Virus record (IMG/VR): IMGVR_UViG_3300010373_000004 | Location: 1 to 64,000 of that record | Length of the DNA stretch: 64,000 nucleotides | Source of the DNA: a virus | Reading direction: 5' to 3' (one strand) | Part shown: one piece after another, positions 34,291 through 60,898 of the stretch | Layout: each line of letters begins with the position of its first letter | Numbering within the stretch: position 1 is the first letter of the stretch | Translations under genes and position numbers: made by a program | The notes under the pieces: model-generated | Told to the model about the DNA's origin: nothing | Database searches by the model: none | What the model saw: the letters and a program-made list of their open reading frames with translations, nothing else

Positions 34291-34915
34291 CTTCTAGTGC
34301 CTCTATCTGTGCCAAACGATCTTCTGGATTGTTGGCCTGGTGGAATTTAGCTGTTACTTGTTGTTGTGAAGCTGTTATAGATTCTAAATTAGCTTCACCT
34401 GGGCGAATCGCCTCAAATGGATTCGTTTTATCTGGAAGGATTCCTACTGACTGCATGTGCTTTAACTTCTTTTCCCTGATCTCGGCTCTACCTTTAATAG
34501 CCGATAGCTTGACAGCCGAACCCTTCCCTGCTTCCTCTATGAAATCCGTAAGTGCTTTTAAGTCCTCATCATACCCAAATACACCAGCACCAACTAAATG
34601 GTCTGGATTCATGTGGCGAACTGATAATTTTGTGGTTAATAATTCACCAATTGAACGTTCGTCATACTTGGGAAAGCGATTACATAGCTGGCGGACTGAT
34701 GCTCCGGCTACATATAGCTCAACAATCTTATTTTCTATCTTTTCAAGTTCTACTGCATATTCTTCTTCGGGAGTCATAACTTGAAGATGTGTTTCTTGTT
34801 GAGCCTCTAAAGGATCATCAATGTCATCTGCCTCTTGTAATAGGGCTTCCAGGTCATTTTCGGAGGACATACTGGCAGAATACCTGATTTTGTTGACAAT
34901 TGCAAGAGGGTACAT
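34268..34915 (-). CDS. Putative terminase small subunit
   Basis: HTH-like segment followed by helical region; first gene of the late arm. Confidence 0.5.
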   Translation of the reverse strand: MYPLAIVNKIRYSASMSSENDLEALLQEADDIDDPLEAQQETHLQVMTPEEEYAVELEKIENKIVELYVAGASVRQLCNRFPKYDERSIGELLTTKLSVRHMNPDHLVGAGVFGYDEDLKALTDFIEEAGKGSAVKLSAIKGRAEIREKKLKHMQSVGILPDKTNPFEAIRPGEANLESITASQQQVTAKFHQANNPEDRLAQIEALEGEFNVQD

Positions 34916-34944
34916 ATACTGATTGCTCCGCGCCGCCAGGTAAG

Positions 34945-35408: not shown

Positions 35409-36227
35409 ATGGCCACTGATAACGAATCCACAAACAATGAGACGGAAAGCACGCAAAGGGAACGCGTATGCCCGGTGAACGTCTACAAGAAGGGCCTTAT
35501 TAAACCGTTCATTATCGGCAACGGTTTCATTACCGTATGGCCCACTTTCACGGTTGAAACTGCCAAGGAACAAACCGCCGAGGATATCCTGTCTGAGCGT
35601 TTCGCGGGAAAGGTTGATGCGCTCAAAACGGCAGGGGCATATGACGCCATATTGGAAATGATCAAGGGTGAGATTGCGGCCAGGAAGAATAGCGGCAGCA
35701 ATAAGCTTCCCGAATCCATCAATGGTGACGATCTGAGGGCATTTCCAGCAGTGCGTATCTACTCGGCACTCGGGCGATATGACCTGTCTGTGATGGCAGT
35801 CAATTCGGTATCGCAGGATGACACCGAAACCCTTACCGAATTCGCCGAGCTAATCATCCGTCGCATGAACGGCAAGGTTGCCTCCTCCGATTTTGCGGTG
35901 ATGTGGAAGATCGAAACCCTTGAAGCGATGATCAAGATCGCGGGATGCGCAAAGCTGACTGCCGTGGAAATGAGCCAGGATGACAAAAAGGCTCGGGATA
36001 AGGCTCGCAAGGAAAAGGCAGACAAGATGATTGCTGATTGCGGTTTCACGGCCGACCAATTGAAGATCGATGCGATCAAGAAGATCGTTACCGATGCTTC
36101 CCGAGAGGGCGAATCCGGGCAAGCTTTCACGGTTGAGGGCAAGTGGGACAATGACAAGCTTTGGGCAGAGGTGATCAAAGCGAATCCCCGTACTGCTGGC
36201 GCCAAGGAACCTGCTAATCAACAGTAG
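35409..36227 (+). CDS. Hypothetical early protein (GC-rich gene)
   Basis: Strong RBS GGAGG; likely start MATDNE. Confidence 0.7.
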   Translation: MATDNESTNNETESTQRERVCPVNVYKKGLIKPFIIGNGFITVWPTFTVETAKEQTAEDILSERFAGKVDALKTAGAYDAILEMIKGEIAARKNSGSNKLPESINGDDLRAFPAVRIYSALGRYDLSVMAVNSVSQDDTETLTEFAELIIRRMNGKVASSDFAVMWKIETLEAMIKIAGCAKLTAVEMSQDDKKARDKARKEKADKMIADCGFTADQLKIDAIKKIVTDASREGESGQAFTVEGKWDNDKLWAEVIKANPRTAGAKEPANQQ

Positions 36228-36232
36228 GAACA

Positions 36233-36324
36233 GTCGAAACAGGGAGTGTCTGAGCAGACTTACTGATACGCCGAAACGTGCCCTCCCATCGGCAACGGTG
36301 GGAGGGTTTCGGCATTTCTGAGAC
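36233..36324 (+). ncRNA. Type II hammerhead-like RNA with hairpin inserted in the CUGAnGA core
   Basis: GTC-GAAAC...GTC-[TGAG caga CTTA]-CTGA-[53-nt hairpin]-GA-GAC. Confidence 0.5.
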
Positions 36325-36698
36325 ATGAAAGACCTGGAAATACTTTACTTTCTAAAGTATCAATGCCGGCACGGTCTGAATACCCTACCAGGGTATCCTA
36401 TGACTGATGCCCTCGTTTCATGCATGGGAAGCACCATAAGCGAGAGCTATCATTCCTGCCATTTTGAGGGCCATACAGGCGATTTTCGGCGACGTCCGAT
36501 AACTGATGCGTTGAGGGCTAGAATCGCCCGTAGAATCGGCTCAAATCAGGTTTGTATTATTGTCAAGTGGAGCACGGCGGTCGCCTGGCCAGAAAAGCGA
36601 CCGGCCTTCATAAATAACATCAATGTTTTGGATTGTGTTATCTATGTGGGCGCTCTAGTCCTAGTCCACTAAAATCAAAAACAGAAAGGGAAGTCCTA

Positions 36699-36932
36699 AT
36701 GTCACTCGATCAACAATTGGCCGCATTCAGAACAGACTGGAGCAATGTCAATCGCAAATTGTCATTTGCGCAAAGGGATGGCCGTAAGTCTAAGACGGCT
36801 GAATTGTCCTTGCGAAAGACAATCATCGAGAACATGATCGAAAAGATTAATCTCGATATCAACAAGTGCATCGCATCTAGCGACCACTCCAAAGCTTTCT
36901 GCAACAATTGCGGGATGCAGGTCGAACGATGA
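36699..36932 (+). CDS. Hypothetical protein
   Basis: RBS; start MSLDQQ. Confidence 0.55.
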   Translation: MSLDQQLAAFRTDWSNVNRKLSFAQRDGRKSKTAELSLRKTIIENMIEKINLDINKCIASSDHSKAFCNNCGMQVER

Positions 36933-37111
36933 TCAAAATCAACGTCAAAGAAGTCACAAGCATAGGTGTTTCCCACAACATCATCACCGTCACTGAACAA
37001 CAAGCCATTGTTTTAATCAAAGCTTTGGTCGATGTGATGACTGGTGGTGAGAATATGATGGGCTCTCATCTGCCTGGACGCGATTTCGAGGTTTCAGTAG
37101 AGCGCAAATAA
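36929..37111 (+). CDS. Hypothetical protein
   Basis: ATGA coupling to the upstream gene. Confidence 0.5.
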   Translation: MIKINVKEVTSIGVSHNIITVTEQQAIVLIKALVDVMTGGENMMGSHLPGRDFEVSVERK

Positions 37112-37112
37112 C

Positions 37113-37184
37113 GTCGAAATTACTGGTGGTAAATAGCCGCCAGTAATATAGTGGATTGACATTCCACTACTGATGAGACTGTCA
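37113..37184 (+). ncRNA. Type II hammerhead ribozyme
   Basis: GTC-GAAA-TTACTGG..CCAGTAA-TA-TAGTGGA..TCCACTA-CTGATGA-GAC; 3' TGTCA can pair with loop-I TGACA. Confidence 0.9.
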
Positions 37185-37206
37185 CAATTTAGCAGAAAGG
37201 ACAATC

Positions 37207-38529
37207 ATGGCAGGTAGAAAGTGCGCTGAATGCGGTGGGCCGGGTCATAACTCGGCTACTTGCGGACAGTATGCACATTACAAATGTCCAGAATGTGGGC
37301 TTACATTTAGTAAATGGCCCGCTCCTAGGTGGCGCGCAGAGGCGTACTGCAAAGGTGACGAAGTAAATCCACACAATGAAACAGAGGTTGTGGAATTCGA
37401 CGGCCGCCCAACACCGAGCGCACGACCTACTAGCAATAGTGGATTCGACCTTGATAAATTAGTCGAGCAAATATCCACTGCTGTAGTCGCCGCCAGTGGT
37501 TTGTCAAATGTTGAATATGACAAGCTACATAACTGGATCAAAGAAGAAGCGGATTCAAGACTGGAAGCGTATGATACGCAGCATATCCAGCTTGTTAATG
37601 AACTGCGAGAGTTTACAAACACTCTCAATGATCTCCGCAACAAAGTAGCGGCTACACAAACTCACACCCACACTTTGCAACTGGCAGAGAATAAGGGTGA
37701 GTATAAGTTCGCTACTAATGAGGCGCCCTCTGCAATCTTGCAGGATTTGGTGAAGTATTACAAGATTCGCCAGCTTGCGATGATTTGGGGACCGTCGGGC
37801 AGTGGTAAATCATTCGCCGTCGAACAAGCCTACAAAGTAATTAAGGCTCAGTTCGGATTCAGTGATGATGAATTCATCTTTGTACCACTGTCAATGACTC
37901 TTGGCATTAATGAGGCTGACCTTTATGGTCGCATGTTGCCGGATGGCTCATTTGTTGAGTCTAAGCTTTGTGTGGCCTATGAGAAAGGTGGGCTGGTGCT
38001 GTGGGATGAAATGGACGGTGCCGACCAAAACTTGTTACTTGTCATTAATAGGATTGTGGAGTATGACGATTTCTACAACCCAAAGAACGGCAAGACTTAC
38101 AAGAGACACAAAAACTTCCATTCATTTGCTGCAACCAACACAAACGGTCGTGGACCGACAGCAGCATACAATAGCCGCAATCGGCTAGATATGGCAACAC
38201 TTACACGGTTCAACCAAGCTGTGTATCTCTCTTACAATGAAGATGTGGAGAGGGCCATTCTTTCCGATGAAACATTGCTGAATGTGGCATGGAAGATCAG
38301 AGAATATCTGATGAATAACAATGCACAGGAAGTAATGTCAACCCGACATATCCGGGATATCGCTAAAGGTCTGGCAGAATTCGATGCTAAGACTCTTTTT
38401 GAACGCATGATTTCTACGTGGGCTCCTAATCTGCGCGAGGGCATCGTGCGCCTGCCAGAGTGGGGATATCTCGCTGCATATAAGGCTAATGTAAATCTGG
38501 ATTTTCTCTATGAAGAAGTCGAGAACTAG
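37207..38529 (+). CDS. MoxR/CbbQ/CobS-type AAA+ ATPase with N-terminal Zn fingers
   Basis: GPSGSGKS Walker A, LWDEMD Walker B, ATNTNG sensor, 'LDMATLTRF' Arg finger. Confidence 0.85.
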   Translation: MAGRKCAECGGPGHNSATCGQYAHYKCPECGLTFSKWPAPRWRAEAYCKGDEVNPHNETEVVEFDGRPTPSARPTSNSGFDLDKLVEQISTAVVAASGLSNVEYDKLHNWIKEEADSRLEAYDTQHIQLVNELREFTNTLNDLRNKVAATQTHTHTLQLAENKGEYKFATNEAPSAILQDLVKYYKIRQLAMIWGPSGSGKSFAVEQAYKVIKAQFGFSDDEFIFVPLSMTLGINEADLYGRMLPDGSFVESKLCVAYEKGGLVLWDEMDGADQNLLLVINRIVEYDDFYNPKNGKTYKRHKNFHSFAATNTNGRGPTAAYNSRNRLDMATLTRFNQAVYLSYNEDVERAILSDETLLNVAWKIREYLMNNNAQEVMSTRHIRDIAKGLAEFDAKTLFERMISTWAPNLREGIVRLPEWGYLAAYKANVNLDFLYEEVEN

Positions 38530-38770
38530 ATTTACCTGCCTCGATTGTGGCGTGGACACAAGCAGGATCGGGGAGTATTATATGCTCTCCGATTCTACTT
38601 GGAGTCTAATACACAATAGCAATAAAGGCATGTTGTGTATTGGCTGCGCTGAAAATCGTTTAGGTCGCAAGCTGGTAGCATCCGACTTCCATGTTTGTAC
38701 TCTCAACGATTTTCACCATAGCTGTTATATGCGTTCACAAAGATTAGTTGATAGGATGACTAATGGCTGA
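38510..38770 (+). CDS. Small Zn-finger protein
   Basis: CLDC...YML..W...LCIGCAE.RLGR.L. Confidence 0.6.
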   Translation: MKKSRTRFTCLDCGVDTSRIGEYYMLSDSTWSLIHNSNKGMLCIGCAENRLGRKLVASDFHVCTLNDFHHSCYMRSQRLVDRMTNG

Positions 38771-39608
38771 TTTTGAATACGAACACACTCTCGAAGAAAT
38801 AAAAGAGTGGGTTCGGAGCGATGATTTGCGGACGGCTATCAAATTAGATAGCAATAAGCGGAACATGGATTCAAATGTCATACGGCCTAATGATCCATCA
38901 TTCTATGGTGCATCATATAAAGAGTCCGTAAGACAGTTATTCGACGGTGTTGATAACTTCAATGATTGGTTGTCTAGTTCACCGCCGATGGACATTCCCA
39001 CAAAATCAATCCGGCGCCGTCGTGTTTATAGCGATAGTTCTGGTGAGATTGATATGGACCGCCGATGGGATGATTATCCTTTTGAAACATTCCATCATGT
39101 GCGCTTTGATAATCCGATTGTCAAGGTCTACATTAATGGTGGTTTTAGAGGGATGGTTCACCAACGCCATATAAATGCGTATGGAATGAAGATTTATTCC
39201 ATCATCAACGCATTAGAGACTGCGGGTAAGATGTGTGAGATTTATCTCTACTACAATACCCTCGGGATTACTGGTGGAAATGAACTCACATTCACAACAG
39301 TGAAGATTAAAGGTTCTGATGAATACGTGGACGGCAAAGTATTAGCTACATGTTTCACCAGTTTCTTCTATCGTCGTTTCATATTTGCTCTACGTATTAA
39401 GGATGCGGACAGCCGCAACGAAACAGCATCGTGGGGCATGGGTTCGTCACAACTTTATAAGCACACTCTTTTACAAATATCAGAGGCAGGAGATACTATT
39501 TGGTTGGAGGCCACCGACCCGGCTAATTTTGATGGGTCCACATACACAAAGGCAGTCGATGAAATCCTAGAAAAGGTTATCAAAGGAAGGGACGAGATAA
39601 GCGAATGA
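38763..39608 (+). CDS. Putative AAA+ partner protein (VWA/CobT-like)
   Basis: 'SGEIDMDR' and 'IINALETAG..CEIY' pattern; adjacent to the AAA ATPase. Confidence 0.55.
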   Translation: MADFEYEHTLEEIKEWVRSDDLRTAIKLDSNKRNMDSNVIRPNDPSFYGASYKESVRQLFDGVDNFNDWLSSSPPMDIPTKSIRRRRVYSDSSGEIDMDRRWDDYPFETFHHVRFDNPIVKVYINGGFRGMVHQRHINAYGMKIYSIINALETAGKMCEIYLYYNTLGITGGNELTFTTVKIKGSDEYVDGKVLATCFTSFFYRRFIFALRIKDADSRNETASWGMGSSQLYKHTLLQISEAGDTIWLEATDPANFDGSTYTKAVDEILEKVIKGRDEISE

Positions 39609-39963
39609 AGGCAGTCACTATAACTGTTGCTTTCACAGCAACTGTGCCTGACGATGTGGAAACCGGGTATTTAGCTGTTGATTTAGATGTTGACAGAATA
39701 AAGCTTGTCAATCATCGGTTTAATTCTTTGTCTAGTGCTAATTGCATTAGTCATTTATCTCTGGAACCGTATCTAATAGTCGAAACATATCTTGACAGCT
39801 ATGTTAAGATATGTCTGTGGGAGTCGCCTACCTACACTGATGATGACAGGCGAGAAAGATAAAACAATTATCACTTTCTATGTTTCCAATAGGGAACAAG
39901 GTCGGGCCGTTCTGCGCATGCTCAATAAGATGCGCGTTAAGGCTTTCATTGTGAGGCCGTGTT

Positions 39964-40182
39964 ATGCCTAATCTCACTGAATATCTGGATGCGACCATGC
40001 CAGATGTAATCGAGGAAGAACAACTGGAAGAAATGAATCGTGAAGTAACGATTATGCTTCCACCAATGGAAAAGAAGGATAGGCGTCCTAAGTGCAAGGT
40101 CTGCAATAAGACCAACATTTATGGTCGTACAATCAAATTTAGCTATTGCGAACAGCACTGGCCAATGAAAGCGGAAGGATAA
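39964..40182 (+). CDS. Hypothetical Zn-finger protein
   Basis: CKVC...YCEQHW. Confidence 0.45.
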   Translation: MPNLTEYLDATMPDVIEEEQLEEMNREVTIMLPPMEKKDRRPKCKVCNKTNIYGRTIKFSYCEQHWPMKAEG

Positions 40183-40429
40183 ACAAATGCCACGTAAGAA
40201 CGGACCCACTCATAAGAGGAACGAACGCAAGTATAAGAATAAGAGTCGCCCAGCTTGTCCTGGTGGAAGTTGTGGCTCTCTTACATGCACTGTTTGTCGA
40301 TCACCTTGGAACAATCGTAGTTCCAATAAGTAGACGCAGATGGGACTGGAGAGAAATCTCCAGTTTAATGCGGCAGTTCCGAATTCCAAAGCACGGAACA
40401 AATAACAACCGCAGAAGAAAGGAACAGTA

Positions 40430-41227
40430 ATGTTCTCAAACCTTCCTAAGACTCAAAAGACCGCGCAGGAGCAAGTGCTGGATGCTATGGCAGTCAGTCG
40501 TTTTGTTTTCCATCTGACAGGTTCTCGCTTTTTCGGAACTAATCGTGAGGACAGCGATTACGATTTCTTTGTCGAGGATGATCATTATTCGCCTTTCGTT
40601 GGAAATGTTCGCTCATGGCTCATAAGTGAGGCTTTCTATTTGATGGATAAGAGTGATTATCTGTCAACTGTTCAGGGCATCAATGATGTTTACCAGCATG
40701 TTAGTGCGAACATTCAGGTCCAGGTTGTTCAGGATGCTACTAAGAAGCAGCGCATTCAAGACGGGATCAAGAACAGTCCTGAATGCATGAACGTCATTAA
40801 GCAGTGTGACAAGTCTCGCAATAAGGGTTTGTGGGAAGCTCTTTACATCATGGATGCTTTCAAGCCTGCTCCAAAGACTCCCGTAAACAAGATTCTCATG
40901 ATCAAGAATGTTCGTGAGTTGTCTGGATGCGGATTGAAGGAGGCCAAGGATTTCGTTGAGGGAGTTTTGATTCCCAATTTCAATGGAACGCCTGCAACAA
41001 TGGAAGTAAACGCAACAAAGAGCGTTGTTCCTGTTGTGAATTCTTCTCCACTTCCAGTTATCGCATGTGGTCGTTGCGGACTGTCACTAACGCGGTTCGC
41101 CTGTTATCGACAAGATTACCGAAACAATAAGCCGCTGTGCTTTAATTGCTGGATTAATGAACGGACATATGTTGATCCGATCTTTGTTTCAGACTGGATA
41201 AGCACACGCAACACAACCACCGTTTAG
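40430..41227 (+). CDS. Pol-beta-type nucleotidyltransferase fused to a bL12 C-terminal-like domain and a Zn finger
   Basis: 'LTGSRFFG...SDYDF' NTase motif; 'NKILMIKNVRELSGCGLKEAKDFVE' L7/L12 signature; CGRC...CFNC. Confidence 0.75.
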   Translation: MFSNLPKTQKTAQEQVLDAMAVSRFVFHLTGSRFFGTNREDSDYDFFVEDDHYSPFVGNVRSWLISEAFYLMDKSDYLSTVQGINDVYQHVSANIQVQVVQDATKKQRIQDGIKNSPECMNVIKQCDKSRNKGLWEALYIMDAFKPAPKTPVNKILMIKNVRELSGCGLKEAKDFVEGVLIPNFNGTPATMEVNATKSVVPVVNSSPLPVIACGRCGLSLTRFACYRQDYRNNKPLCFNCWINERTYVDPIFVSDWISTRNTTTV

Positions 41228-41293
41228 CAGAGTGGGCCGAGAGTTTAATCTCTCGGTTTAATGCGGTAAGGTCGTCACAAGCCCGACCTAAAT
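41222..41293 (+). ncRNA. Twister ribozyme, P5-permuted (variant)
   Basis: GCA-GAGTG-[P1 GGCCGAGAG/CTCTCGGTT]-TAA-TGC...GGTCG-TCACAAGCC-CGACC; P5 GTTTA/TAAAT. Confidence 0.6.
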
Positions 41294-41314
41294 ACAAACG
41301 CATTAGGAGTATTT

Positions 41315-41551
41315 ATGCTAGAGGAAGTTCTAGCGGCATCAGAGATTCAACTGAATATGTGCATTGAAAAAGGCATCTATTCATTTGAGGATTTGATGAA
41401 TCTGAGTCTGTGGGAGCGAGATACAGCTTATGCTTGTCATTTCCAGAGACAATTCGGAGTCCATTATCACAAAGCTGGCGTCCAGTACATCAAAGATGGT
41501 GCAAAGATGCCTCCGATAAATCCTGATAAGGAGATTGGTGATGCCTCTTGA
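41315..41551 (+). CDS. Hypothetical protein
   Basis: RBS AGGAG. Confidence 0.55.
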   Translation: MLEEVLAASEIQLNMCIEKGIYSFEDLMNLSLWERDTAYACHFQRQFGVHYHKAGVQYIKDGAKMPPINPDKEIGDAS

Positions 41552-41917: not shown

Positions 41918-42307
41918 ATGGCGAAGCAGAGTAGAAAGAGGTACGGTTTCGGCCGTGCAAGAGTAGTTCGAGAATTCCTTTACATGCTCCAAAGTGGTCG
42001 CTGCGCAAGATGCGGCGGTCAAATGCTGGCAGACAAAGTTTCTATTGATCATATCAAGCCTTGGAGCATCTACAAAAATGGTGATATCCGCAATTTATGT
42101 GCGATGCATCCACGATGTAACACTCGGAAGGGTGCTATGGAGATTGAGCCGCCATTTGTAGTGCATGTTTCCATGCAAGATTGGTTCGGATGGCTAGCAA
42201 AATGCTGGTCTAATGATCCAGATCGCTATTGGAGCCACAAAGAGCAAGAAAACATCTTCCAGCATAATAATTATAGGACGTGGTCGAGGCGTGCTATTGC
42301 TGGTTGA
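41918..42307 (+). CDS. HNH endonuclease
   Basis: CARC...IDHIKP...NL..MHPRCN.RKG. Confidence 0.85.
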   Translation: MAKQSRKRYGFGRARVVREFLYMLQSGRCARCGGQMLADKVSIDHIKPWSIYKNGDIRNLCAMHPRCNTRKGAMEIEPPFVVHVSMQDWFGWLAKCWSNDPDRYWSHKEQENIFQHNNYRTWSRRAIAG

Positions 42308-50048: not shown

Positions 50049-50123
50049 TGGGGATTAAGATCAGTCAGGTAGATGGCTCGGCCTGGAACCGAGAGGTCGC
50101 GAGTTCGAATCTCGCATCCCCAA
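50049..50123 (+). tRNA. tRNA-Pro(TGG)
   Basis: Cloverleaf; anticodon loop CC-TGG-AA. Confidence 0.85.
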
Positions 50124-50292
50124 CAACTACTTCTATTTTAGAATAAAGAGAAAGATAATGAAGCGATTTGAATTGACTGGATGGAAGGGAGCTATTGCAT
50201 CTTGGTATGTGATTTTGTCCCTTGTTTTTGGAGTTGCTACAGAAGTTTATGTAGTTGCAACTCATGCTGTTCCAGCAGCAAATGCAGTTCAT

Positions 50293-50367
50293 AGCCTAGT
50301 GGCCAAGCGGTAAGGCAGGAGACTGTTAATCTTCTATGCGTAGGTTCGAATCCTACCTGGGCTGCCA
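50293..50367 (+). tRNA. tRNA-Asn(GTT), CCA encoded
   Basis: Cloverleaf. Confidence 0.9.
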
Positions 50368-50369
50368 AT

Positions 50370-50444
50370 CCTCTGTTAGTCGAACGGTTTAAGATACCGC
50401 CCTGTCAAGGCGTGTGATTACGGGTTCAAATCCCGTACAGAGGG
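50370..50444 (+). tRNA. tRNA-Asp(GTC)
   Basis: Cloverleaf. Confidence 0.85.
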
Positions 50445-50499
50445 CTGTCGTTAAACTTTAAGATTTGTGGAAGTTCATCGTTATAAACAAATCACTGAT

Positions 50500-50570
50500 G
50501 GCGCATTCATCTAATGGCAGGATAAGTGACTTTCAATCATTTCGCAGGGGTTCGATCCCCCTATGCGCTA
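50500..50570 (+). tRNA. tRNA-Glu(TTC)
   Basis: Cloverleaf. Confidence 0.9.
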
Positions 50571-50571
50571 C

Positions 50572-50661
50572 TCCGAACCGCCGGTCTAGAACGGTCATAG
50601 TGTATGGTATTGCACGTTAGCTGCGCGAGCTAAAAGTAGAGTTCGAATCTCTTGGAACGGA
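50572..50661 (+). ncRNA. Aberrant tRNA-like RNA (nominal anticodon CGC; interrupted acceptor stem)
   Basis: D arm, TTAGC/GCTAA anticodon stem and GTTCGAATC T loop present; acceptor split by a hairpin. Confidence 0.6.
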
Positions 50662-50666
50662 AACAT

Positions 50667-50737
50667 GCCCTGATAGTTAAATGGTATAACAGTAGTCTTG
50701 TAAACTTCTGTTCTCAGTTCGATTCTGAGTCGGGGCT
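50667..50737 (+). tRNA. tRNA-Thr(TGT)
   Basis: Cloverleaf. Confidence 0.85.
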
Positions 50738-50739
50738 CG

Positions 50740-50937
50740 ATGTTAATAGTAACATTTCACAATCAAGGTATGGATATAAACCTTCCACCAGATGAACAGT
50801 TTTGCGACTATAACGTAGAAGTTATGGTTACTACTAGTCCTACATCTGTAAAAACTATCTATAAAGGTAAAGTTAAGAAACACTATCGAAAAGATGGCTG
50901 GAAGAAATTGCTAGAGTTGGCAACAAAGCAACTCTGA
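50740..50937 (+). CDS. Hypothetical protein
   Basis: Fills the gap between tRNAs. Confidence 0.55.
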   Translation: MLIVTFHNQGMDINLPPDEQFCDYNVEVMVTTSPTSVKTIYKGKVKKHYRKDGWKKLLELATKQL

Positions 50938-50939
50938 AC

Positions 50940-51012
50940 GCTCCTGTGGTATAAAGGTCAATTATACTTGGTCTACACCCAAGTGATTCTAGTTCGAATC
51001 TAGACGGGAGTA
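50940..51012 (+). tRNA. tRNA-Val(TAC)
   Basis: Cloverleaf; loop TC-TAC-AC. Confidence 0.8.
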
Positions 51013-51077
51013 CAGTGACTCAGCCATCATGCACTTGATAATTTCTATCACAGTGGAACATTATAAGGATAACCATA

Positions 51078-51162
51078 GGAAATATGCTGGAGTGGTTTAA
51101 CAGGCACGCCTGCTAAGCGTGTGACCGTAACTGGTCCCTGAGTTCGAATCTCAGTATTTCCG
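51078..51162 (+). tRNA. tRNA-Ser(GCT)
   Basis: Cloverleaf with long variable arm. Confidence 0.9.
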
Positions 51163-51270
51163 CAGAGTCTTAGGGTTCGTGGTATAGAGGGCAGACTCTT
51201 TCAAAACACAGCATACTTACTGATAGTTTTAAGTTCGCGTGAGTTCTATCATTAAAAACTCTACGAAAAT

Positions 51271-51357
51271 GGAATTGTGGCCGAGTGGTTTAAGGCAATA
51301 GTCTTGAAAACTATCGACCGCGCGAGCGGTCCTAGGGTTCGAATCCCTACAATTCCT
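51271..51357 (+). tRNA. tRNA-Ser(TGA)
   Basis: Cloverleaf with long variable arm. Confidence 0.9.
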
Positions 51358-51374
51358 CTTGACAAATAAGTCAT

Positions 51375-51445
51375 GTGGTGCTAAGATAATGGTAGTCCCG
51401 CAGTTTGTGACACTGCGCGTTCCCGTTCGAACCGGGAGCATCACT
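51375..51445 (+). tRNA. tRNA-His(GTG)
   Basis: Cloverleaf; no encoded G-1. Confidence 0.8.
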
Positions 51446-51462
51446 CTTTTAAGGTTTATTGA

Positions 51463-51711
51463 ATGTCTAACGCATGGGATTTAACAACATCTGGTGCCTT
51501 AACCAGATTTAATAGTAATGTGAATACAAAAAGCACTTATGGACCGTCAACAGCGAGTATCGGTCCCAACAGTCTCAGTGCTTCTGGATATGTTGATCCT
51601 ACTATTGTAACAGCGAGTTTAGTTGAACCTTCTCAATATACTAGTCCGGCGGATAACGTCGCCAAAAAGTCATACCCCGGTTTCGAAATCGACGGAGTTA
51701 ATTACATTTAG
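51463..51711 (+). CDS. Hypothetical protein
   Basis: ORF with RBS. Confidence 0.5.
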   Translation: MSNAWDLTTSGALTRFNSNVNTKSTYGPSTASIGPNSLSASGYVDPTIVTASLVEPSQYTSPADNVAKKSYPGFEIDGVNYI

Positions 51712-51914
51712 AAGTTGGTCGTATTGTTGGTCCGACCATCCTCTTGGTAAAGTTCATATAGCTTGGTCGGATGATAGAAGCATTGCTTGTAAGAATATTT
51801 ATTTTGTTCCGCAACATTTTAGAGTTGGGGTTCTAGGATATCTTCCTATGGAAAAGCAAAAGAATCTTTGCAAGCATTGCGCCAAGGCTCTTGAATTAGA
51901 AAGAAGGAATATGT

Positions 51915-52052
51915 ATGCCCCTTCAAACAGGCACTTCACAGAAAGCAATTAGTAGTAATATAGCGACAGAAGTCAAGGCAGGAAAGCCACAAAAGCAAGC
52001 TGTGGCAATTGCAATGAGTAAAGCTGGTAAGAGCACTTCTAAAAAGAAGTAA
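51915..52052 (+). CDS. Small basic protein (45 aa, below track cut-off)
   Basis: [39 protein letters not shown], a pattern common in phages; RBS AAGGA. Confidence 0.7.
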
Positions 52053-52062
52053 CTTACCTCAT

Positions 52063-52133
52063 GCGCCTGTGATTAAATGGTATAATGGGTGCCTTCCAAG
52101 CATCATTTGAGAGTTCGATTCTCTCCAGACGCA
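52063..52133 (+). tRNA. tRNA-Gly(TCC)
   Basis: Cloverleaf. Confidence 0.85.
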
Positions 52134-52237
52134 CAATGGTTTACTAGTGACAAACAACGCTTTGCAATGATTAGGAACTAGTCGTCTAAGTAGCCTGTGA
52201 GTCGCGCATAAAGACGTTAATTGTGGAGACTCTTAAA

Positions 52238-52320
52238 GCCGCTGTGGTGGAACAGTAGACACGCTTGCCTTAGAAGCAAGTATTCTTATGAATGTACGAG
52301 TGCGAATCTTGTCAGCGGTA
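52238..52320 (+). tRNA. tRNA-Leu(TAG)
   Basis: Cloverleaf with long variable arm. Confidence 0.85.
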
Positions 52321-52321
52321 C

Positions 52322-52594
52322 ATGAGAACTATTAAAGATTCTGAGAGAGATAGAAGGAACGCTGATCTTAAAAGAAATGTAGTTGATGCTTTTAAACTAG
52401 CTAAAGGTTGCATTGATTGTGGGTACAAGGAAAATGCAGCAGCACTAGAATTTGATCACTTACCAGGCTTTAGGAAAAATGCTACAGTAGCTTCTCTAAT
52501 GTATAGAAGTCTTAAAGTAATTGTTGAAGAAATAAAGAAATGTGAAGTTGTATGCGCTAATTGTCATGCAATAAGAACGTATAATAGACGATAA
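52322..52594 (+). CDS. HNH endonuclease
   Basis: CIDCG...ALEFDH...EIKKCEVVCANCH; track start 52292 lies inside the tRNA. Confidence 0.85.
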   Translation: MRTIKDSERDRRNADLKRNVVDAFKLAKGCIDCGYKENAAALEFDHLPGFRKNATVASLMYRSLKVIVEEIKKCEVVCANCHAIRTYNRR

Positions 52595-52595
52595 T

Positions 52596-52678
52596 GCTTC
52601 CTTGGTGGAACGGTAGACACCCTGGACTTAAAATCCAGTGTTCGAAAGGACGTGTCGGTTCGAATCCGACAGGAAGTA
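52596..52678 (+). tRNA. tRNA-Leu(TAA)
   Basis: Cloverleaf. Confidence 0.9.
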
Positions 52679-52708
52679 CGGGTTTAATAAACCTAAATTA
52701 AAATTATA

Positions 52709-52930
52709 ATGGAGGCCCATGTAGTGGCTAAGTTATGTTCAAGCAACCTAGAAAGTTGCGAATTTGATTCCGAAACTGGAGTCTTAGTAATAGATTTTGT
52801 TGCAGGTTCTACTTATAAGTATAAGAATGTTCCTGCTAACATTTATCACGGCTTATTAGCTGCTGAGTCTCATGGAAAATTCTTCCATGAAAATATTAGG
52901 GATAAGTTCCCTTATCATAGAGTAGCTTAG
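52709..52930 (+). CDS. KTSC domain protein
   Basis: 'SSNL...L.IDF..GSTY.Y.NVP..IY.GLLAAESHGKFF..NIRD'. Confidence 0.85.
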   Translation: MEAHVVAKLCSSNLESCEFDSETGVLVIDFVAGSTYKYKNVPANIYHGLLAAESHGKFFHENIRDKFPYHRVA

Positions 52931-52942
52931 TCTACTCTTAGT

Positions 52943-53016
52943 GCTTCAATAGCCAAGTGATCTAAGGCGCTTGTCTGCAAAACAAGTATTCGTCGGTTTG
53001 AATCCGACTTGAAGCT
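52943..53016 (+). tRNA. tRNA-Cys(GCA)
   Basis: Cloverleaf. Confidence 0.9.
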
Positions 53017-53090
53017 CATTGGTTTGTTAGTTTTCCAAAAGACACATAGTCTCTTTGTGATTTACACGGTCTAGAAAAACTAACACAAAT

Positions 53091-53163
53091 GCCTCATTGG
53101 TCTAATGGACAGGGCGGCAGCCTTCTAAGCTGTTCGGTACAGGTTCGAATCCTGTATGAGGTA
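53091..53163 (+). tRNA. tRNA-Arg(TCT)
   Basis: Cloverleaf. Confidence 0.9.
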
Positions 53164-53193
53164 TATTAGCTAATCAAGGACTCAATTAGGTCA

Positions 53194-53583
53194 ATGAACA
53201 GCAATGAGCAAAAAGCTTTGCAATTAGGAATGCCTTTTGGTACAGCCTGTAATAGATTAAGAAAAAATATACTTTTTAAACTTCTAGTAGATTTTAAATT
53301 AAATGTATGTTTTCATTGTAATAGAGATATTACTAATGTAGACGAACTGAGTATTGAACACAAACAACCTTGGTTTAAAACAAATGCTGATTTATTTTGG
53401 GATTTAGATAATATAGCATTTAGTCACTACTCATGTAATTCAGGTGCTGCAAATCATGACAATCAGAGAATACTTAAAACCCATTGTATAAATGGGCATG
53501 AATATACAGAAGCAAATACGTCTAGGGTACTAATTCGCGGTAAAGTAACTCGTCGATGTAAAAAGTGTTTAAGTAATCGTTAA
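53194..53583 (+). CDS. HNH endonuclease with C-terminal Zn finger
   Basis: CFHC...SIEHKQPW...NIAFSHYSCN; KTHCINGH...CKKC. Confidence 0.8.
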   Translation: MNSNEQKALQLGMPFGTACNRLRKNILFKLLVDFKLNVCFHCNRDITNVDELSIEHKQPWFKTNADLFWDLDNIAFSHYSCNSGAANHDNQRILKTHCINGHEYTEANTSRVLIRGKVTRRCKKCLSNR

Positions 53584-53598
53584 ATTATCGTATGACAC

Positions 53599-53826
53599 AT
53601 GACAGAAAAGCAATTTAAAGATAATAGTATTGTCTGGTGGAGTTGGGTCTTTCTTTGGTTAATACTGGAAGGATTGGGATTCTCACGGAAAACTCCGTGG
53701 GCGCCACTTACTGAGTATGTTTGGGCCATCGAAGATAGAAATCACTTGGCGCAGTACGGTTTCTTAGTTCTATTTGCGGCTCTGTTAGTCCACTTTGTCG
53801 GTAGGTGGACTGGACACAACGATTAA
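53599..53826 (+). CDS. Small membrane protein
   Basis: Two TM helices. Confidence 0.6.
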   Translation: MTEKQFKDNSIVWWSWVFLWLILEGLGFSRKTPWAPLTEYVWAIEDRNHLAQYGFLVLFAALLVHFVGRWTGHND

Positions 53827-53828
53827 AT

Positions 53829-53902
53829 GGTCCTGTGGTGTACGGGTGCGTGCATAAGTGTCTTATAAACACCAGGTTCTAGTTCGACTCTAGGCAGGAC
53901 TA
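53829..53902 (+). tRNA. tRNA-Ile(TAT)
   Basis: Cloverleaf; loop CT-TAT-AA. Confidence 0.8.
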
Positions 53903-53907
53903 CGTAT

Positions 53908-53980
53908 GCTCCGATAGCTCAGATGGTAGAGCGCATGTCTGAAAAACATGAGGTCGTCGGATCGATACCGACTCGGAGCA
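53908..53980 (+). tRNA. tRNA-Phe(GAA)
   Basis: Cloverleaf. Confidence 0.9.
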
Positions 53981-53986
53981 CTTATT

Positions 53987-54058
53987 GCTCGCTTACGCTA
54001 ATGGTTGGCGACAGTTCTGATAAAGCTGTGTGAGGTAGTCCGATTCTACCAGCGAGTA
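53987..54058 (+). tRNA. tRNA-Ile(GAT)
   Basis: Cloverleaf. Confidence 0.8.
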
Positions 54059-54075
54059 CAAAGCTAAAATAGCAC

Positions 54076-54104
54076 TTGACATCGTTCCTCCAGTATGGTA
54101 TTAT
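54076..54104 (+). promoter_or_regulatory. Sigma70 promoter inside the tRNA cluster
   Basis: TTGACA-17-TATTAT with TG. Confidence 0.8.
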
Positions 54105-54118
54105 AGATAGGTCGTTGA

Positions 54119-54190
54119 GCGCCTCTGACGTAACGGTAGCGTAGCGGACTTTTAATCCGACAAGTAAGAGTTCGAATCTCTTGGGGCGTA
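54119..54190 (+). tRNA. tRNA-Lys(TTT)
   Basis: Cloverleaf. Confidence 0.9.
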
Positions 54191-54199
54191 CAAAAAGAA

Positions 54200-54433
54200 A
54201 TGCTAAAAACAAAAGAAGCAGTAAAAAGAACAGCTACCTTCAAAGCTTTTGAAATTGAAGGTCTTTGGTATCGTGAAACCTGTAATTTCTGTGGTAAGGA
54301 AATAGATCACTTCTATAAATTAGAGTTTGACGATACATATCCAATAAAGGAAAATCAGGATGGTCCTAATAGACCATACATTTATCTTTGTTTGGAACAT
54401 TACGAACGGTTAACACATGCTCCAGTAGCATAA
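54200..54433 (+). CDS. Small Zn-finger protein
   Basis: CNFC...LCLEH. Confidence 0.55.
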   Translation: MLKTKEAVKRTATFKAFEIEGLWYRETCNFCGKEIDHFYKLEFDDTYPIKENQDGPNRPYIYLCLEHYERLTHAPVA

Positions 54434-54491
54434 TGGAAAGTGTCTCTGCCTTCGAAGCAGGTGGGTACGGGTTCGAATCCTGTCTGGAGTA
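54419..54491 (+). tRNA. tRNA-Arg(TCG)
   Basis: Cloverleaf; loop CT-TCG-AA. Confidence 0.85.
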
Positions 54492-54535
54492 CGCAAATGG
54501 TTACTCAATAGACTCTCGTTTGATGGAATTAGAAT

Positions 54536-54606
54536 GGGCCATTAAGTTAATGGGAAACTTCCTGCTTTGCACGCAGGGTTTGAGAGTTCGATTCTCTCAT
54601 GGTCCA
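54536..54606 (+). tRNA. tRNA-Ala(TGC)
   Basis: Cloverleaf; G3-U70. Confidence 0.9.
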
Positions 54607-54607
54607 C

Positions 54608-54680
54608 TGCGGGATAGTGTAATAGCAACATGCCAGCCTCATAAGCTGTGCGACTATGGGTGCAAATCCCATTTCCGCTA
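54608..54680 (+). tRNA. tRNA-Met(CAT), initiator-like
   Basis: Cloverleaf; 1:72 mismatch. Confidence 0.8.
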
Positions 54681-54818
54681 CTGAGTTGTCAGAGTCTTTA
54701 AAACTGTCTGTCAGTTACCAATCTGACATTAATTAAAATTGGGTGCGCGAATAGAATTAACGAGGCGTCGCTACACGCCTACACAGCGAGTAATGTCGGT
54801 GAGCTATTCCGGTAAAAT

Positions 54819-54889
54819 TGCCGAGTGTTGTAATGGTAGCAAAAGTGACTTTGAATCATTTAGTCTGGGTTCGAAACCTAGCTCGGCAG
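54819..54889 (+). tRNA. tRNA-Gln(TTG)
   Basis: Cloverleaf. Confidence 0.85.
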
Positions 54890-54963
54890 CTACACAGTAG
54901 TCGAATAATAGACAGCCTGACAAAGGTAAATGTGCAAGAATGAGAGAATCTTGCCTGTGGTAG
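54890..54963 (+). ncRNA. Degenerate tRNA-like RNA
   Basis: CTACACAG/CTGTGGTAG acceptor, D-like arm, GCCT/AGGT arm, GCAAGA/TCTTGC arm without TTC. Confidence 0.5.
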
Positions 54964-55059
54964 GAAGCCAGTAATCCTTATTCCAAACTGGTTGTACATA
55001 AATGAATTGGTGCCTTAACCTTTAGGTAAAAGCTTAATGTCTAGAACGCCAATTCTTAT

Positions 55060-56939: not shown

Positions 56940-56946
56940 GACTTTA

Positions 56947-60891: not shown

Positions 60892-60898
60892 CACTATT

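What the first reader, a model, noticed from the sequence alone, without database searches (positions are those of the whole stretch)
40430..41227. Nucleotidyltransferase fused to a ribosomal bL12 C-terminal-like domain
Seen: a GS..DxD NTase domain, a Pro/Lys linker, then KILMIKNVRELSGCGLKEAKDFVE, closely matching the L7/L12 motif, then a Zn finger. Established: the bL12 CTD binds translational GTPases (EF-Tu, EF-G, IF2), and a related fold occurs in ClpS. Inference: an early effector using ribosomal mimicry to deliver nucleotidylation to translation factors or their bound tRNAs.
Basis: partly seen in the sequence, partly recalled or inferred. Interest (0 to 1): 0.7.

Follow-up and report, generated by a model that had tools for sequence, protein, structure and literature searches.

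The report
Phage nucleotidyltransferase carrying a bL12 hairpin
An uncultured phage joins a small nucleotide-transferring enzyme domain to a 28-residue copy of the part of ribosomal protein bL12 that grips translation factors; the pairing recurs in related phages, which hints at an untested way of acting on host translation.

Summary
Residues 10-148 form a minimal Pol-beta-type nucleotidyltransferase (NTase) fold. G31-S32 and D43-x-D45 are conserved, but the presumed third carboxylate is Gln96. Residues 152-179 match Pfam Ribosomal_L12 above its cut-off, but only profile positions 10-37 of 67. That stretch is helices 4-5, the site that binds translational GTPases, not the whole C-terminal domain. 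The Cys4 tail (C213xxC216...C237xxC240) occurs only in this protein.

New here:
- The N-domain belongs to an unannotated, virus-restricted family, usually about 140 aa and stand-alone.
- 11 of 118 family members examined carry the same hairpin at the C-terminus. In at least 6 further loci a hairpin-bearing small ORF lies next to the NTase gene on the same strand.
- Family genes often sit within 650 bp of phage tRNA genes (21 of 80 metagenome loci, 4 of 13 viral records).
- This gene is bracketed by two Twister-P5 ribozyme matches.

Binding to a translation factor, catalysis and the target are all untested. Interest is moderate: a new variant of known kinds.

The parts
40430..41227 (+). CDS of the 265-aa protein (P0001), stop codon included
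   Evidence: ORF list and sequence. A 53%-identical homologue, P0002, exists.
40419..40423 (+). Shine-Dalgarno-like AAGGA, 6 nt before the ATG
   Evidence: Read directly from the sequence.
40457..40873 (+). Minimal Pol-beta-type nucleotidyltransferase fold, residues 10-148
   Evidence: AF2 pLDDT is mostly above 90. VIA-align gives Z 7.5 and 6.5 to GrpB domains, 5.8 to a CCA-adding enzyme, about 5.3 to TUTases and 5.0 to MenT1. Foldseek rows 1-10 are NTase-fold proteins, but the best E is only 0.02. 29 of 118 family members hit PF01909 at E <= 0.01.
40520..40525 (+). G31-S32 of the hG[GS] motif
   Evidence: Invariant in 118 of 118 family members.
40556..40564 (+). D43-Y-D45 metal-binding DxD
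   Evidence: D43 is kept in 117 of 118 members and D45 in 118 of 118.
40715..40723 (+). Q96-V-Q98 on strand 95-100. Q96 sits where a third carboxylate is expected (inferred). Q98 is nearly invariant.
   Evidence: Column 96 is H in 64, D in 43 and Q in 10 of 118 members. Q98 is kept in 116 of 118. The strand is from the AF2 model.
40859..40882 (+). Pro/Lys linker FKPAPKTP, residues 144-151
   Evidence: Sequence. pLDDT dips here.
40883..40966 (+). bL12 helix 4-5 hairpin, residues 152-179
   Evidence: PF00542 at 32.2 bits, profile positions 10-37 of 67. PDB bL12 chains match at E 0.0024-0.018. Two helices, 154-165 and 169-179/185, with pLDDT 86-97.
41066..41149 (+). Cys4 motif C213xxC216-x20-C237xxC240 (putative zinc knuckle or ribbon)
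   Evidence: Cysteine positions. pLDDT is below 60. The motif is absent from the closest homologue, P0002, which ends at 207 aa with a stop codon inside its contig.
40335..40396 (+). Twister-P5-like ribozyme just upstream of the gene
   Evidence: Rfam RF02684 at 37.1 bits (gathering score 37.6), E 3.6e-5. It aligns with the downstream copy, with stems that differ but still pair.
41226..41286 (+). Twister-P5 ribozyme overlapping the stop codon
   Evidence: Rfam RF02684 at 39.7 bits, above the gathering score of 37.6. A sub-threshold match at the equivalent place follows the P0002 gene, at L018 916-977 (27.2 bits, E 0.0022).

Best explanation
The protein is a phage accessory enzyme built from three modules.
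1. A minimal Pol-beta-type nucleotidyltransferase domain. It belongs to a virus-restricted, unannotated family whose genes often lie beside phage tRNA genes.
2. A free-standing copy of bL12 helices 4-5, the surface with which the ribosomal stalk captures EF-Tu, EF-G, IF2 and RF3.
3. A lineage-specific Cys4 tail.

Most likely the hairpin is a docking module. It would bring the NTase to a translational GTPase, with EF-Tu and its tRNA cargo the prime candidate, so that the enzyme transfers a nucleotide to the factor or to a tRNA end during infection.

Shown: the modules, their homology, the recurrence of the NTase/hairpin pairing, and the tRNA-gene linkage.
Inferred: docking to a GTPase, catalytic activity, and the identity of the substrate.
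For: Hairpin homology:
- PF00542 above its cut-off, profile positions 10-37 only. bL12 chains are the only significant PDB sequence hits.
- Query residues 151-179 align to residues 62-90 of the E. coli chain 1rqu, which are helices 4-5. PMC6753160 (passage) states that bL12 binds IF2, EF-Tu, EF-G and RF3 through a conserved, positively charged site in helices 4 and 5.
- K154, K159, R162, K170 and K173 are the majority residues in the hairpins of the fusion proteins.

Non-accidental pairing:
- 11 of the 118 N-domain proteins among the best 150 hits carry a C-terminal hairpin. Three more turned up (P0154, P0155, P0180).
- On an N-domain tree, a fusion label set on 10 rows needs 6 changes, and at least 2 are forced by well-supported branches.
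- In 6 distinct further loci (L046, L051, L081, L096/L097, L043, L095) a separate same-strand ORF 23-970 bp from the NTase gene carries a hairpin-like motif. 5 of these 6 hit PF00542 below threshold over profile positions 9-41.
- Controls: only the target hits among the window's 387 frames, and reversed sequences give 0 hits.

Enzyme-like conservation:
- G31, S32 and D45 are invariant. R33, S42, D43, Y77, Q98, K106, Q110 and W135 are kept in at least 90% of members.
- The NTase fold is supported.

tRNA link:
- 29 of 80 metagenome loci hold a same-strand tRNA, and in 21 of 80 it lies within 650 bp.
- In 4 of 13 IMG/VR records a tRNA lies within 650 bp, although those genomes have only 2-4 tRNAs each.
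- The closest homologue's gene starts 56 bp after a tRNA-Leu(UAA).

Precedents, seen as abstracts in the listing:
- MenT NTases extend tRNA acceptor stems (PMC10435456).
- A CDI toxin uses EF-Tu to cleave tRNAs (PMC5737660).
Against: - No experiment or computation here shows binding to any GTPase.
- The hairpin lacks the beta-sheet and helix 6 of the bL12 CTD, so it may not present the same surface.
- Q96 replaces the presumed third carboxylate in this protein and in P0002. The family is split H 64, D 43, Q 10 at that column, so activity is uncertain.
- PF01909 is below its cut-off for this protein (13.7 bits against 21), and the structural Z scores are modest (at most 7.5).
- In this genome the nearest tRNA is 8.8 kb away. 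6 of 13 IMG/VR records with the family have no tRNA at all.
- tRNA adjacency might reflect RNA processing 'punctuation' rather than a substrate, because here twisters occupy the flanks.
- In an EF-Tu ternary complex the tRNA 3' end is aminoacylated and buried (recalled knowledge), which argues against that end as the substrate.
- Bacterial membrane-anchored proteins made of hairpin-only repeats show that the module is used in other, unknown settings.
Confidence: 0.4

Rival explanations
1. Antitoxin mimic or anti-defence enzyme. The domain is an MntA-like minimal NTase that nucleotidylylates and so neutralises a host translation-targeting toxin, such as a HEPN RNase or anticodon nuclease. The hairpin serves as bait or as an address to the place where such toxins act.
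For: - The best sequence-level hits outside the family are MntA: PDB 7ae2 at E 0.055 with the family profile, and NCBIfam MntA_antitoxin at E 0.18.
- One 144-kb phage carries at least 7 tandem paralogues, a pattern typical of arms-race genes.
- This phage also carries 26 tRNAs, PNKP, an RNA ligase and an RlaP NTase. PMC7824862 (passages) describes that toolkit as a counter to tRNA-cleaving host immunity.
Against: - The MntA matches are not significant and cover only the GS...DxD motif.
- No HEPN or other toxin family was found among the neighbours scanned with Pfam.
- PADLOC gave no match.
- This reading does not explain why the hairpin in particular recurs.
Confidence: 0.2
2. The hairpin descends from bL12 but now serves only as a structural, oligomerisation or nucleic-acid-binding helix pair. 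The NTase acts on RNA or tRNA ends, in maturation or repair, without touching a GTPase.
For: - Only two helices are present.
- Fold searches with the C-terminal model give nothing significant. bL12 rows are mixed with HU/IHF-type helix pairs, and the highest VIA-align Z is 4.1.
- Bacterial proteins contain 3-4 hairpin-only repeats behind a membrane anchor.
- tRNA genes beside family genes mostly lack an encoded CCA end (2 of 26 have one; 1 of 26 in the window).
Against: - Identity to real bL12 is high (19 of 31 residues), and the charged residues of the GTPase site are retained. A mere scaffold would not be expected to keep them.
- At about 140 aa the domain lacks the neck and body of CCA-adding enzymes, and no CCA-adding-enzyme family appeared among the four Pfam families listed at E <= 10.
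Confidence: 0.15
3. Non-catalytic protein. With Gln at the third metal-ligand position, the NTase fold only binds a nucleotide or serves as a scaffold. The protein acts as a stalk mimic that titrates or relocates a translation factor.
For: - Q96 is found in P0001 and P0002.
- PMC6375957 (passages) reports phage proteins with bL12 domains and suggests that they provide interfaces for translation factors.
Against: - G31, S32, D43 and D45 and several other polar residues are kept across the family, as expected of an active site.
- His is the commonest residue at column 96 and can bind metal.
- A single hairpin of probably low affinity is a poor titrant (inference).
Confidence: 0.15
4. Chance resemblance, or not a real gene.
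For: None found.
Against: - Pfam E 1.3e-7, above the cut-off.
- A homologue 53% identical along the NTase domain and the hairpin.
- 1134 family hits at E <= 0.001.
- A confident fold.
Confidence: 0.02

Closest known systems
Phage proteins containing a bL12 domain (Mizuno et al. 2019, PMC6375957; passages read)
   Same: A bL12-derived segment sits inside a larger phage polypeptide. Homologues without the segment exist, and acquisition appears to have happened repeatedly. The authors suggested a link to translation factors.
   Different: Those are described as bL12 domains, about 60-70 aa by the coverage values in their Table 1. Here only helices 4-5 (28 aa) are present, and the partner is an NTase domain, which the passages I saw do not mention. 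Their supplementary architecture figures could not be opened.
Ribosomal protein bL12 C-terminal domain (Pfam PF00542; PDB 1dd3, 1ctf, 1rqu)
   Same: 19 of 31 residues are identical to 1dd3 over helices 4-5, and the Lys/Arg residues of the factor-binding site are kept.
   Different: There is no N-terminal uL10-binding domain, no hinge, no beta-strands and no helix 6. The segment is attached to an enzyme, so the protein is not a stalk protein.
Minimal nucleotidyltransferases: NTP_transf_2 (PF01909), the MntA antitoxin, and GrpB-type domains
   Same: The hG[GS]-x10-DxD signature, a size of about 140 aa, and the alpha/beta NTase fold.
   Different: This protein scores below the Pfam cut-off. The third carboxylate position is H, D or Q. 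There is no HEPN partner. The family is viral and is absent from PHROGs (3 of 118 members hit phrog_388).
MenT/AbiEii NTase toxins that extend tRNA acceptor stems (PMC10435456, abstract seen in the listing)
   Same: An NTase fold (MenT1 at Z 5.0, rmsd 4.5, 109 residues aligned) and a link to tRNA.
   Different: No sequence match, no antitoxin partner, phage-encoded, and the tRNA link here is by gene neighbourhood only.
CDI toxin CdiA-CT(NC101), which uses EF-Tu to reach tRNA (PMC5737660, abstract seen in the listing)
   Same: The concept of an enzyme that reaches tRNA through EF-Tu.
   Different: An unrelated fold. According to its abstract, that toxin binds domain 2 of EF-Tu. The bL12-type contact is with helix D of the G domain (title of Kothe et al. 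2004, seen in the reference list).
RlaP NTase (PF10127) of RNA-repair modules
   Same: A phage Pol-beta NTase next to tRNA genes. This genome has one at 60199-60891.
   Different: A profile-profile comparison finds only the 19-residue GS...DxD motif in common (probability 28%).
   Same: A bL12 factor-binding piece attached to a nucleic-acid enzyme of a large phage. The fusion is conserved but often lost.
   Different: A different enzyme (kinase) and a different genome. That note was not checked here.

Membership tests
Pol-beta superfamily nucleotidyltransferase (NTP_transf_2 / MNT-like) | hG[GS] motif at the end of strand 1 | tested here: met
   L29-T30-G31-S32. G and S are invariant in 118 of 118 members.
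Pol-beta superfamily nucleotidyltransferase (NTP_transf_2 / MNT-like) | DxD/E pair on strand 2, about 10 residues after GS | tested here: met
   D43-Y-D45. D43 is kept in 117 of 118 members and D45 in 118 of 118.
Pol-beta superfamily nucleotidyltransferase (NTP_transf_2 / MNT-like) | Third carboxylate on a later strand | tested here: not met
   The candidate column, residue 96 on strand 95-100, is Q in this protein. Across the family it is H 64, D 43, Q 10 of 118. The choice of column is my inference from the strand pattern and spacing; it was not checked on a residue-level structural alignment.
Pol-beta superfamily nucleotidyltransferase (NTP_transf_2 / MNT-like) | Alpha/beta NTase fold | tested here: met
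   VIA-align gives Z 7.5 (6n39 GrpB domain, 133 aligned, rmsd 4.2), 6.5 (2nrk) and 5.8 (4x4n). Foldseek rows are NTases, but with E >= 0.02. These scores are modest.
Pol-beta superfamily nucleotidyltransferase (NTP_transf_2 / MNT-like) | Pfam PF01909 gathering score | tested here: not met
   13.7 bits against 21. 29 of 118 relatives reach E <= 0.01.
Ribosomal protein bL12 C-terminal domain (PF00542) | Pfam gathering score | tested here: met
   32.2 bits against 25.9. 33.1 bits in the six-frame genome search.
Ribosomal protein bL12 C-terminal domain (PF00542) | Complete alpha/beta domain (all 67 profile positions, three helices and a three-stranded sheet) | tested here: not met
   Only profile positions 10-37 match. 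The models show two helices followed by low-confidence coil. In most fusion relatives the protein ends right after the hairpin.
Ribosomal protein bL12 (whole protein) | N-terminal dimerisation and uL10-binding domain plus a hinge | tested here: not met
   The N-terminus is the NTase domain. No other ribosomal family appears in Pfam at E <= 10. TIGR00855 scores 25.2 bits against 84.4.
Type VII toxin-antitoxin MntA antitoxin | Equivalog score, and an adjacent HEPN (HepT) toxin gene | tested here: not met
   NF047752 scores 11.7 bits against 60. No HEPN family was found in the 10 neighbouring ORFs scanned.
CCA-adding enzyme (tRNA nucleotidyltransferase) | Head plus neck and body domains, and family signature motifs | tested here: not met
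   The domain has only about 140 aa. No CCA-adding-enzyme family is among the four Pfam families listed at E <= 10. Structural similarity is limited to the head domain (Z 5.8, 4.5, 4.3).
MenT/AbiEii NTase toxins | Family-specific sequence profile and a cognate antitoxin | tested here: inconclusive
   Only a fold-level match to MenT1 (Z 5.0). No Pfam or PADLOC hit.
Phage bL12-domain proteins sensu Mizuno et al. 2019 | A PF00542 match inside a larger phage-encoded polypeptide | tested here: met
   The genome is a complete viral record with direct terminal repeats.
Zinc ribbon / zinc knuckle | Four metal ligands in two CxxC knuckles, with a supporting fold | tested here: inconclusive
   The CxxC-x20-CxxC pattern is present. 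The model is low-confidence. No family or homologue was found.

The most novel reading that the evidence does not exclude
A virus-only family of minimal nucleotidyltransferases has repeatedly recruited a detachable 28-residue copy of the ribosomal stalk's GTPase-binding hairpin, either fused or as a neighbouring gene. With it the enzyme hijacks EF-Tu or another translational GTPase and nucleotidylates the factor or its tRNA. This would be a new phage strategy for reprogramming or protecting translation. In this phage the gene is expressed from an mRNA cut out by two flanking twister ribozymes.
Probability: 0.2. Interest if true: 0.8.

Novelty: new variant of a known kind. Interest (0 to 1): 0.55.

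Why it matters
If the hairpin does dock on a translational GTPase, it would be the smallest natural 'stalk mimic' known, and a portable address tag that phages attach to enzymes. It would also define a large, unannotated, virus-specific NTase family (1134 hits at E <= 0.001) whose genes lie beside tRNA genes. That would open a testable route to learning how phages modify or protect the tRNA and elongation-factor pool during infection. Even without a known function, the recurrence of the pairing as both fusions and neighbouring genes gives a clear hypothesis, and the 28-residue peptide is easy to test.

Tried and rejected
- Complex prediction of E. coli EF-Tu with residues 140-200. The tool returned 'no answer' (score 0.01, mark 0.32). 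I use it neither for nor against binding.
- Public sequencing runs. No RNA holder was listed, so expression could not be examined.
- tblastn and megablast against the phage collection found no match. PADLOC found no match.
- Fold searches with the C-terminal half model gave nothing significant. Foldseek's best E was 0.61, for bL12 chain 2zjq_5. The highest VIA-align Z was 4.1. The piece is too small for these methods, so this says nothing about the fold.
- A specific relationship to the genome's RlaP NTase was rejected: only the shared 19-residue motif aligns.
- A paralogue of the Cys4 tail in the window was not found.
- A strict twister-P5 pattern on all fetched loci found only the window's two copies, the copy in L018, and one two-mismatch match in L007. 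Rfam at its gathering scores found only tRNAs in the 13 IMG/VR loci.
- Hammerhead ribozymes proposed by earlier notes in 36233-37184 gave no Rfam match at E <= 0.1. This does not prove they are absent.
- Neighbour genes of the 12 IMG/VR loci scanned (150 ORFs, PHROGs) showed no single conserved partner. Helicases matched 4+3 ORFs, RNA ligases 2+1, and several ORFs were HNH endonucleases.
- Literature searches and a term search inside PMC7824862 ('L12': 0 occurrences) turned up no description of an NTase-bL12 fusion.
- The genome-contig scan found 2 relatives, both in MAG contigs labelled Candidatus Saccharibacteria. Only one peptide pattern was used, so absence elsewhere is not shown.
Full report
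**Setting.** The window is bases 1-64000 of a complete 83,776-bp viral record with direct terminal repeats. Long ORFs on the - strand fill 1-34.9 kb. The + strand block from about 35.4 kb onward holds:
- a CobS-like AAA_5 ATPase (37207-38529) and a DUF7192 protein (38763-39608);
- an HNH endonuclease (41918-42307), an RNase H and a DNA ligase;
- 26 tRNA genes (50.0-61.8 kb);
- a PNKP, an RNA ligase, an RlaP NTase and a dual-specificity phosphatase.

The finding lies in this non-structural block. Whether it is an 'early' gene is not shown. The only positional hint is a near-consensus promoter-like site at 34893-34920, and promoter-like sites in that scan were no more frequent than in shuffled sequence.

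**The observation.** ORF 40430-41227 (+) encodes 265 aa and has an AAGGA site 6 nt before the ATG.
- G31-S32 and D43-Y-D45;
- the linker FKPAPKTP (residues 144-151);
- the stretch KILMIKNVRELSGCGLKEAKDFVE (residues 154-177);
- C213xxC216-x20-C237xxC240.

Pfam Ribosomal_L12 matches residues 152-179 at E 1.3e-7 and 32.2 bits (cut-off 25.9), but only over profile positions 10-37 of 67. A six-frame search of the whole genome finds this one site. phmmer against PDB sequences returns bL12 chains as the only hits below E 0.1. With chain 1dd3, 19 of 31 aligned residues are identical, and residues 151-179 align to residues 62-90 of the E. coli chain 1rqu. On this protein alone the NTase signal is weak (PF01909 E 0.082).

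**Anatomy.** An AlphaFold2 model built on 118 aligned sequences (mean pLDDT 77) gives three regions:
- a confident alpha/beta domain over residues 10-148;
- two helices, 154-165 and 169-185, with pLDDT 86-90;
- a C-terminus of low confidence.

A separate model of residues 140-265 again gives just two confident helices, 154-165 and 169-179 (pLDDT 90-97). The cysteine-rich tail stays below 60. The bL12-like part is therefore helices 4-5 alone, not the alpha/beta C-terminal domain and not a ClpS-like fold.

The N-domain matches NTase-fold structures consistently but modestly:
- GrpB domains at Z 7.5 (133 aligned, rmsd 4.2) and 6.5;
- a CCA-adding enzyme at 5.8, TUTases at about 5.3, MenT1 at 5.0 and ANT(2'') at 4.8;
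- Foldseek rows 1-10 are NTase-fold proteins, but the best E is 0.02;
- the ESM Atlas structural neighbours include GrpB and NTP_transf_2 clusters.

**The N-domain family.** A profile search of 1.84 billion representatives found 1134 proteins at E <= 0.001, of which I saw the best 150.
- 118 of the 150 contain the N-domain, with a median length of 144.5 aa. The other 32 contain only bL12-like segments.
- In the 118-sequence alignment, G31, S32 and D45 are invariant. F27, L29, T30, R33, F35, S42, D43, F46, F47, L64, F69, Y77, Q98, K106, Q110 and W135 are kept in at least 90%.
- 29 of 118 members hit PF01909 and 17 of 118 hit Polbeta at E <= 0.01. The family profile's best PDB hit is the MntA antitoxin 7ae2, at E 0.055.
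- The column I take to be the third carboxylate (residue 96, on the strand I-x-V-Q-h-V) is H in 64, D in 43 and Q in 10 members. P0001 and P0002 have Q. This placement is inferred from the hDh pattern and from the spacing of about 50 residues recalled for poly(A) polymerases. It was not verified residue by residue.
- The family is not in PHROGs: 3 of 118 members hit phrog_388.
- The sources give it no informative name. In a search of 5.8 billion proteins, all 47 hits came from metagenome sources. The only names were 'hypothetical protein' and, once, 'ribosomal protein L7/L12'.
- The nearest Atlas clusters are 91-100% viral. A pattern scan of 185,579 species genomes found only 2 relatives. BFVD holds structurally similar small uncharacterised proteins from Rhizobium, Agrobacterium, Pseudomonas LKA1 and Xanthomonas phages, with target-normalised TM scores of 0.45-0.64.

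**The pairing recurs.**
- Fusions. Of the 118 members, 11 carry a C-terminal hairpin: P0001, P0002, P0004, P0009, P0037, P0040, P0060, P0074 (two hairpins), P0084, P0137 and P0147. My own hairpin HMM and Pfam (11 of 118) agree. P0154, P0155 and the degenerate P0180 add three more.
- No room for the rest of the domain. In most of these proteins the chain ends a few residues after the hairpin.
- Tree. On a poorly resolved N-domain tree, the fusion label (10 rows; P0147 was not yet labelled) needs 6 changes, and at least 2 are forced by starred branches. The fusion has therefore been gained or lost more than once.
- Neighbouring genes. Among 80 metagenome loci, one is the fusion P0002 (L018). In 7 loci, 6 of them distinct, a separate same-strand ORF next to the NTase gene carries a hairpin-like motif, in three cases with an insertion of about 20 aa between the two helices. 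These are L046, L051, L081, L096/L097, L043 and L095, with gaps of 23-970 bp.
- Independent check. Pfam places PF00542 below threshold on 5 of these 6 ORFs (E 5.6e-5 to 0.018), always over profile positions 9-41.
- Controls. Only the target hits among the window's 387 frames, and reversed sequences give none.
- All 13 IMG/VR loci encode the stand-alone form.

Finding the same two parts fused in some genomes and as neighbouring genes in others argues that the NTase and the hairpin work together.

[quoted passage not shown] From memory, not from any call: the N-terminal helices of EF-Ts carry a similar motif (Wieden et al. 2001), so a bare helical motif of this kind can contact EF-Tu. The lysines and arginine of the site (K154, K159, R162, K170, K173) are the majority residues in the hairpins of the fusions.

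Mizuno et al. (PMC6375957, passages) already reported bL12 domains inside larger phage proteins, with homologues lacking them, and suggested interfaces for translation factors. I did not check that note.

**A link to tRNA genes.**
- Among the 80 metagenome loci (296,977 bases), 29 hold at least one tRNA gene, 44 in all, every one on the strand of the NTase gene. In 21 of 80 the tRNA lies within 650 bp.
- 27 of the 44 are Leu(UAA) (12), Lys(UUU) (8) or Ile(UAU) (7).
- Among the 13 IMG/VR records, 7 have any tRNA and 6 have none. In 4 of them a tRNA lies within 650 bp of the NTase gene, although those records hold only 4, 4, 4 and 2 tRNAs in 144, 170, 98 and 23 kb.
- In the 144-kb phage, 2 of its 4 tRNAs are interleaved with at least 7 tandem N-domain paralogues.
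- Only 2 of 26 of these neighbouring tRNA genes encode a CCA end. In the window, 1 of 26 does.
- The P0002 gene starts 56 bp after a tRNA-Leu(UAA).
- In the window itself the nearest tRNA is 8.8 kb downstream.

**Ribozymes on both flanks.** Rfam finds a Twister-P5 at 41226-41286, overlapping the stop codon (39.7 bits, gathering score 37.6). A second lies at 40335-40396, 34 nt before the start codon (37.1 bits, just under the gathering score, E 3.6e-5). A third, sub-threshold match follows the P0002 gene (L018 916-977, 27.2 bits). The three share the core and differ in their stems in ways that keep the pairing: 6 of 18 predicted pairs have changes on both sides.

The gene thus appears to be released as a separate RNA unit. 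This offers a second reading of the tRNA adjacency: tRNAs may mark RNA processing points rather than being substrates.

**Interpretation.** The shown facts are the modules, their homology, the recurrent pairing and the tRNA linkage. The best-supported mechanism, at about 0.4, is that the hairpin docks the NTase on a translational GTPase, with EF-Tu and tRNA as prime candidates, for nucleotidyl transfer to the factor or a tRNA.

NTase-fold enzymes that AMPylate proteins, including a GTPase (DrrA on Rab1; GlnE), are recalled precedents and come from no call. tRNA-extending MenT toxins and an EF-Tu-dependent CDI tRNase were seen as abstracts.

Against this reading:
- no binding or activity has been shown;
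- the rest of the CTD is missing;
- Q96 sits at the presumed third ligand position;
- bacterial proteins built of hairpin-only repeats behind a membrane anchor show that the module has other, unknown uses.

The rivals are an MntA-like anti-defence enzyme (0.2), a purely structural hairpin on an RNA-end enzyme (0.15) and a non-catalytic stalk mimic (0.15).

**Novelty and verdict.** Phage bL12-domain proteins and minimal NTases are both known. What my searches did not find described (supplements closed) is:
- this virus-restricted NTase family;
- its repeated pairing with a helix 4-5-only module;
- its position beside tRNA genes;
- the twister-bracketed gene.

I class it as a new variant of known kinds, of moderate interest, with function unproven.

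Noticed in passing
window 40335-40396 and 41226-41286; L018 916-977: Two Twister-P5 matches bracket the NTase-hairpin gene: 37.1 bits (just under the gathering score of 37.6) and 39.7 bits. A weaker copy (27.2 bits) follows the closest homologue's gene on another contig. The stems differ but keep their pairing. The upstream copy overlaps the mechanical ORF 40146-40430, which is therefore probably not coding.
   Followed up: partly
L002 1651-6485 (144-kb IMG/VR phage): At least 7 tandem paralogues of the stand-alone NTase domain. Two tRNA-Lys(UUU) genes (2880-2953, 3575-3650) are interleaved with them. The whole genome has only 4 tRNAs.
   Followed up: partly
L046 3618-3983, L051 84-533, L096 5424-5801: Small ORFs next to NTase genes carry a 'split' bL12-like hairpin. 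An insertion of about 20 residues separates the NKIxAIK helix from the GLxEAKD helix.
   Followed up: partly
proteins P0006, P0011, P0055, P0105 and others: Bacterial proteins with an N-terminal membrane anchor followed by 3-4 repeats of the hairpin alone, spaced about 60 residues apart. The Atlas neighbours are from Chloroflexota and Actinomycetota, and some carry DUF6793. Other hits (P0003, P0005, P0007) contain 4-6 tandem segments that look like complete bL12 CTDs.
   Followed up: no
window 50049-61779: 26 tRNA genes on the + strand. Only one (50293-50367) ends in CCA, so the phage tRNAs need CCA to be added after transcription.
   Followed up: partly
window 57246-62245: An RNA-repair-type cluster: PNKP (kinase plus HAD phosphatase) at 57246-58133, RNA ligase at 58320-59249, RlaP NTase at 60199-60891 (followed 8 nt later by tRNA-Trp), and a dual-specificity phosphatase at 61790-62245.
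   Followed up: partly
window 37207-39608: A CobS-like AAA_5 ATPase (phrog_249) with an N-terminal Cys-rich stretch, a small Cys-rich ORF (phrog_6053) and a DUF7192 protein form a conserved-looking trio upstream of the finding.
   Followed up: no
window 36233-37184: The hammerhead ribozymes proposed by earlier notes of this scan gave no Rfam match at E <= 0.1 in 35900-41400. This is not proof that they are absent.
   Followed up: partly
L098, L099 (genome collection): The only two cellular-genome hits of the NTase family lie on 153-kb and 304-kb contigs of MAGs labelled Candidatus Saccharibacteria. These could be binned phage contigs.
   Followed up: no
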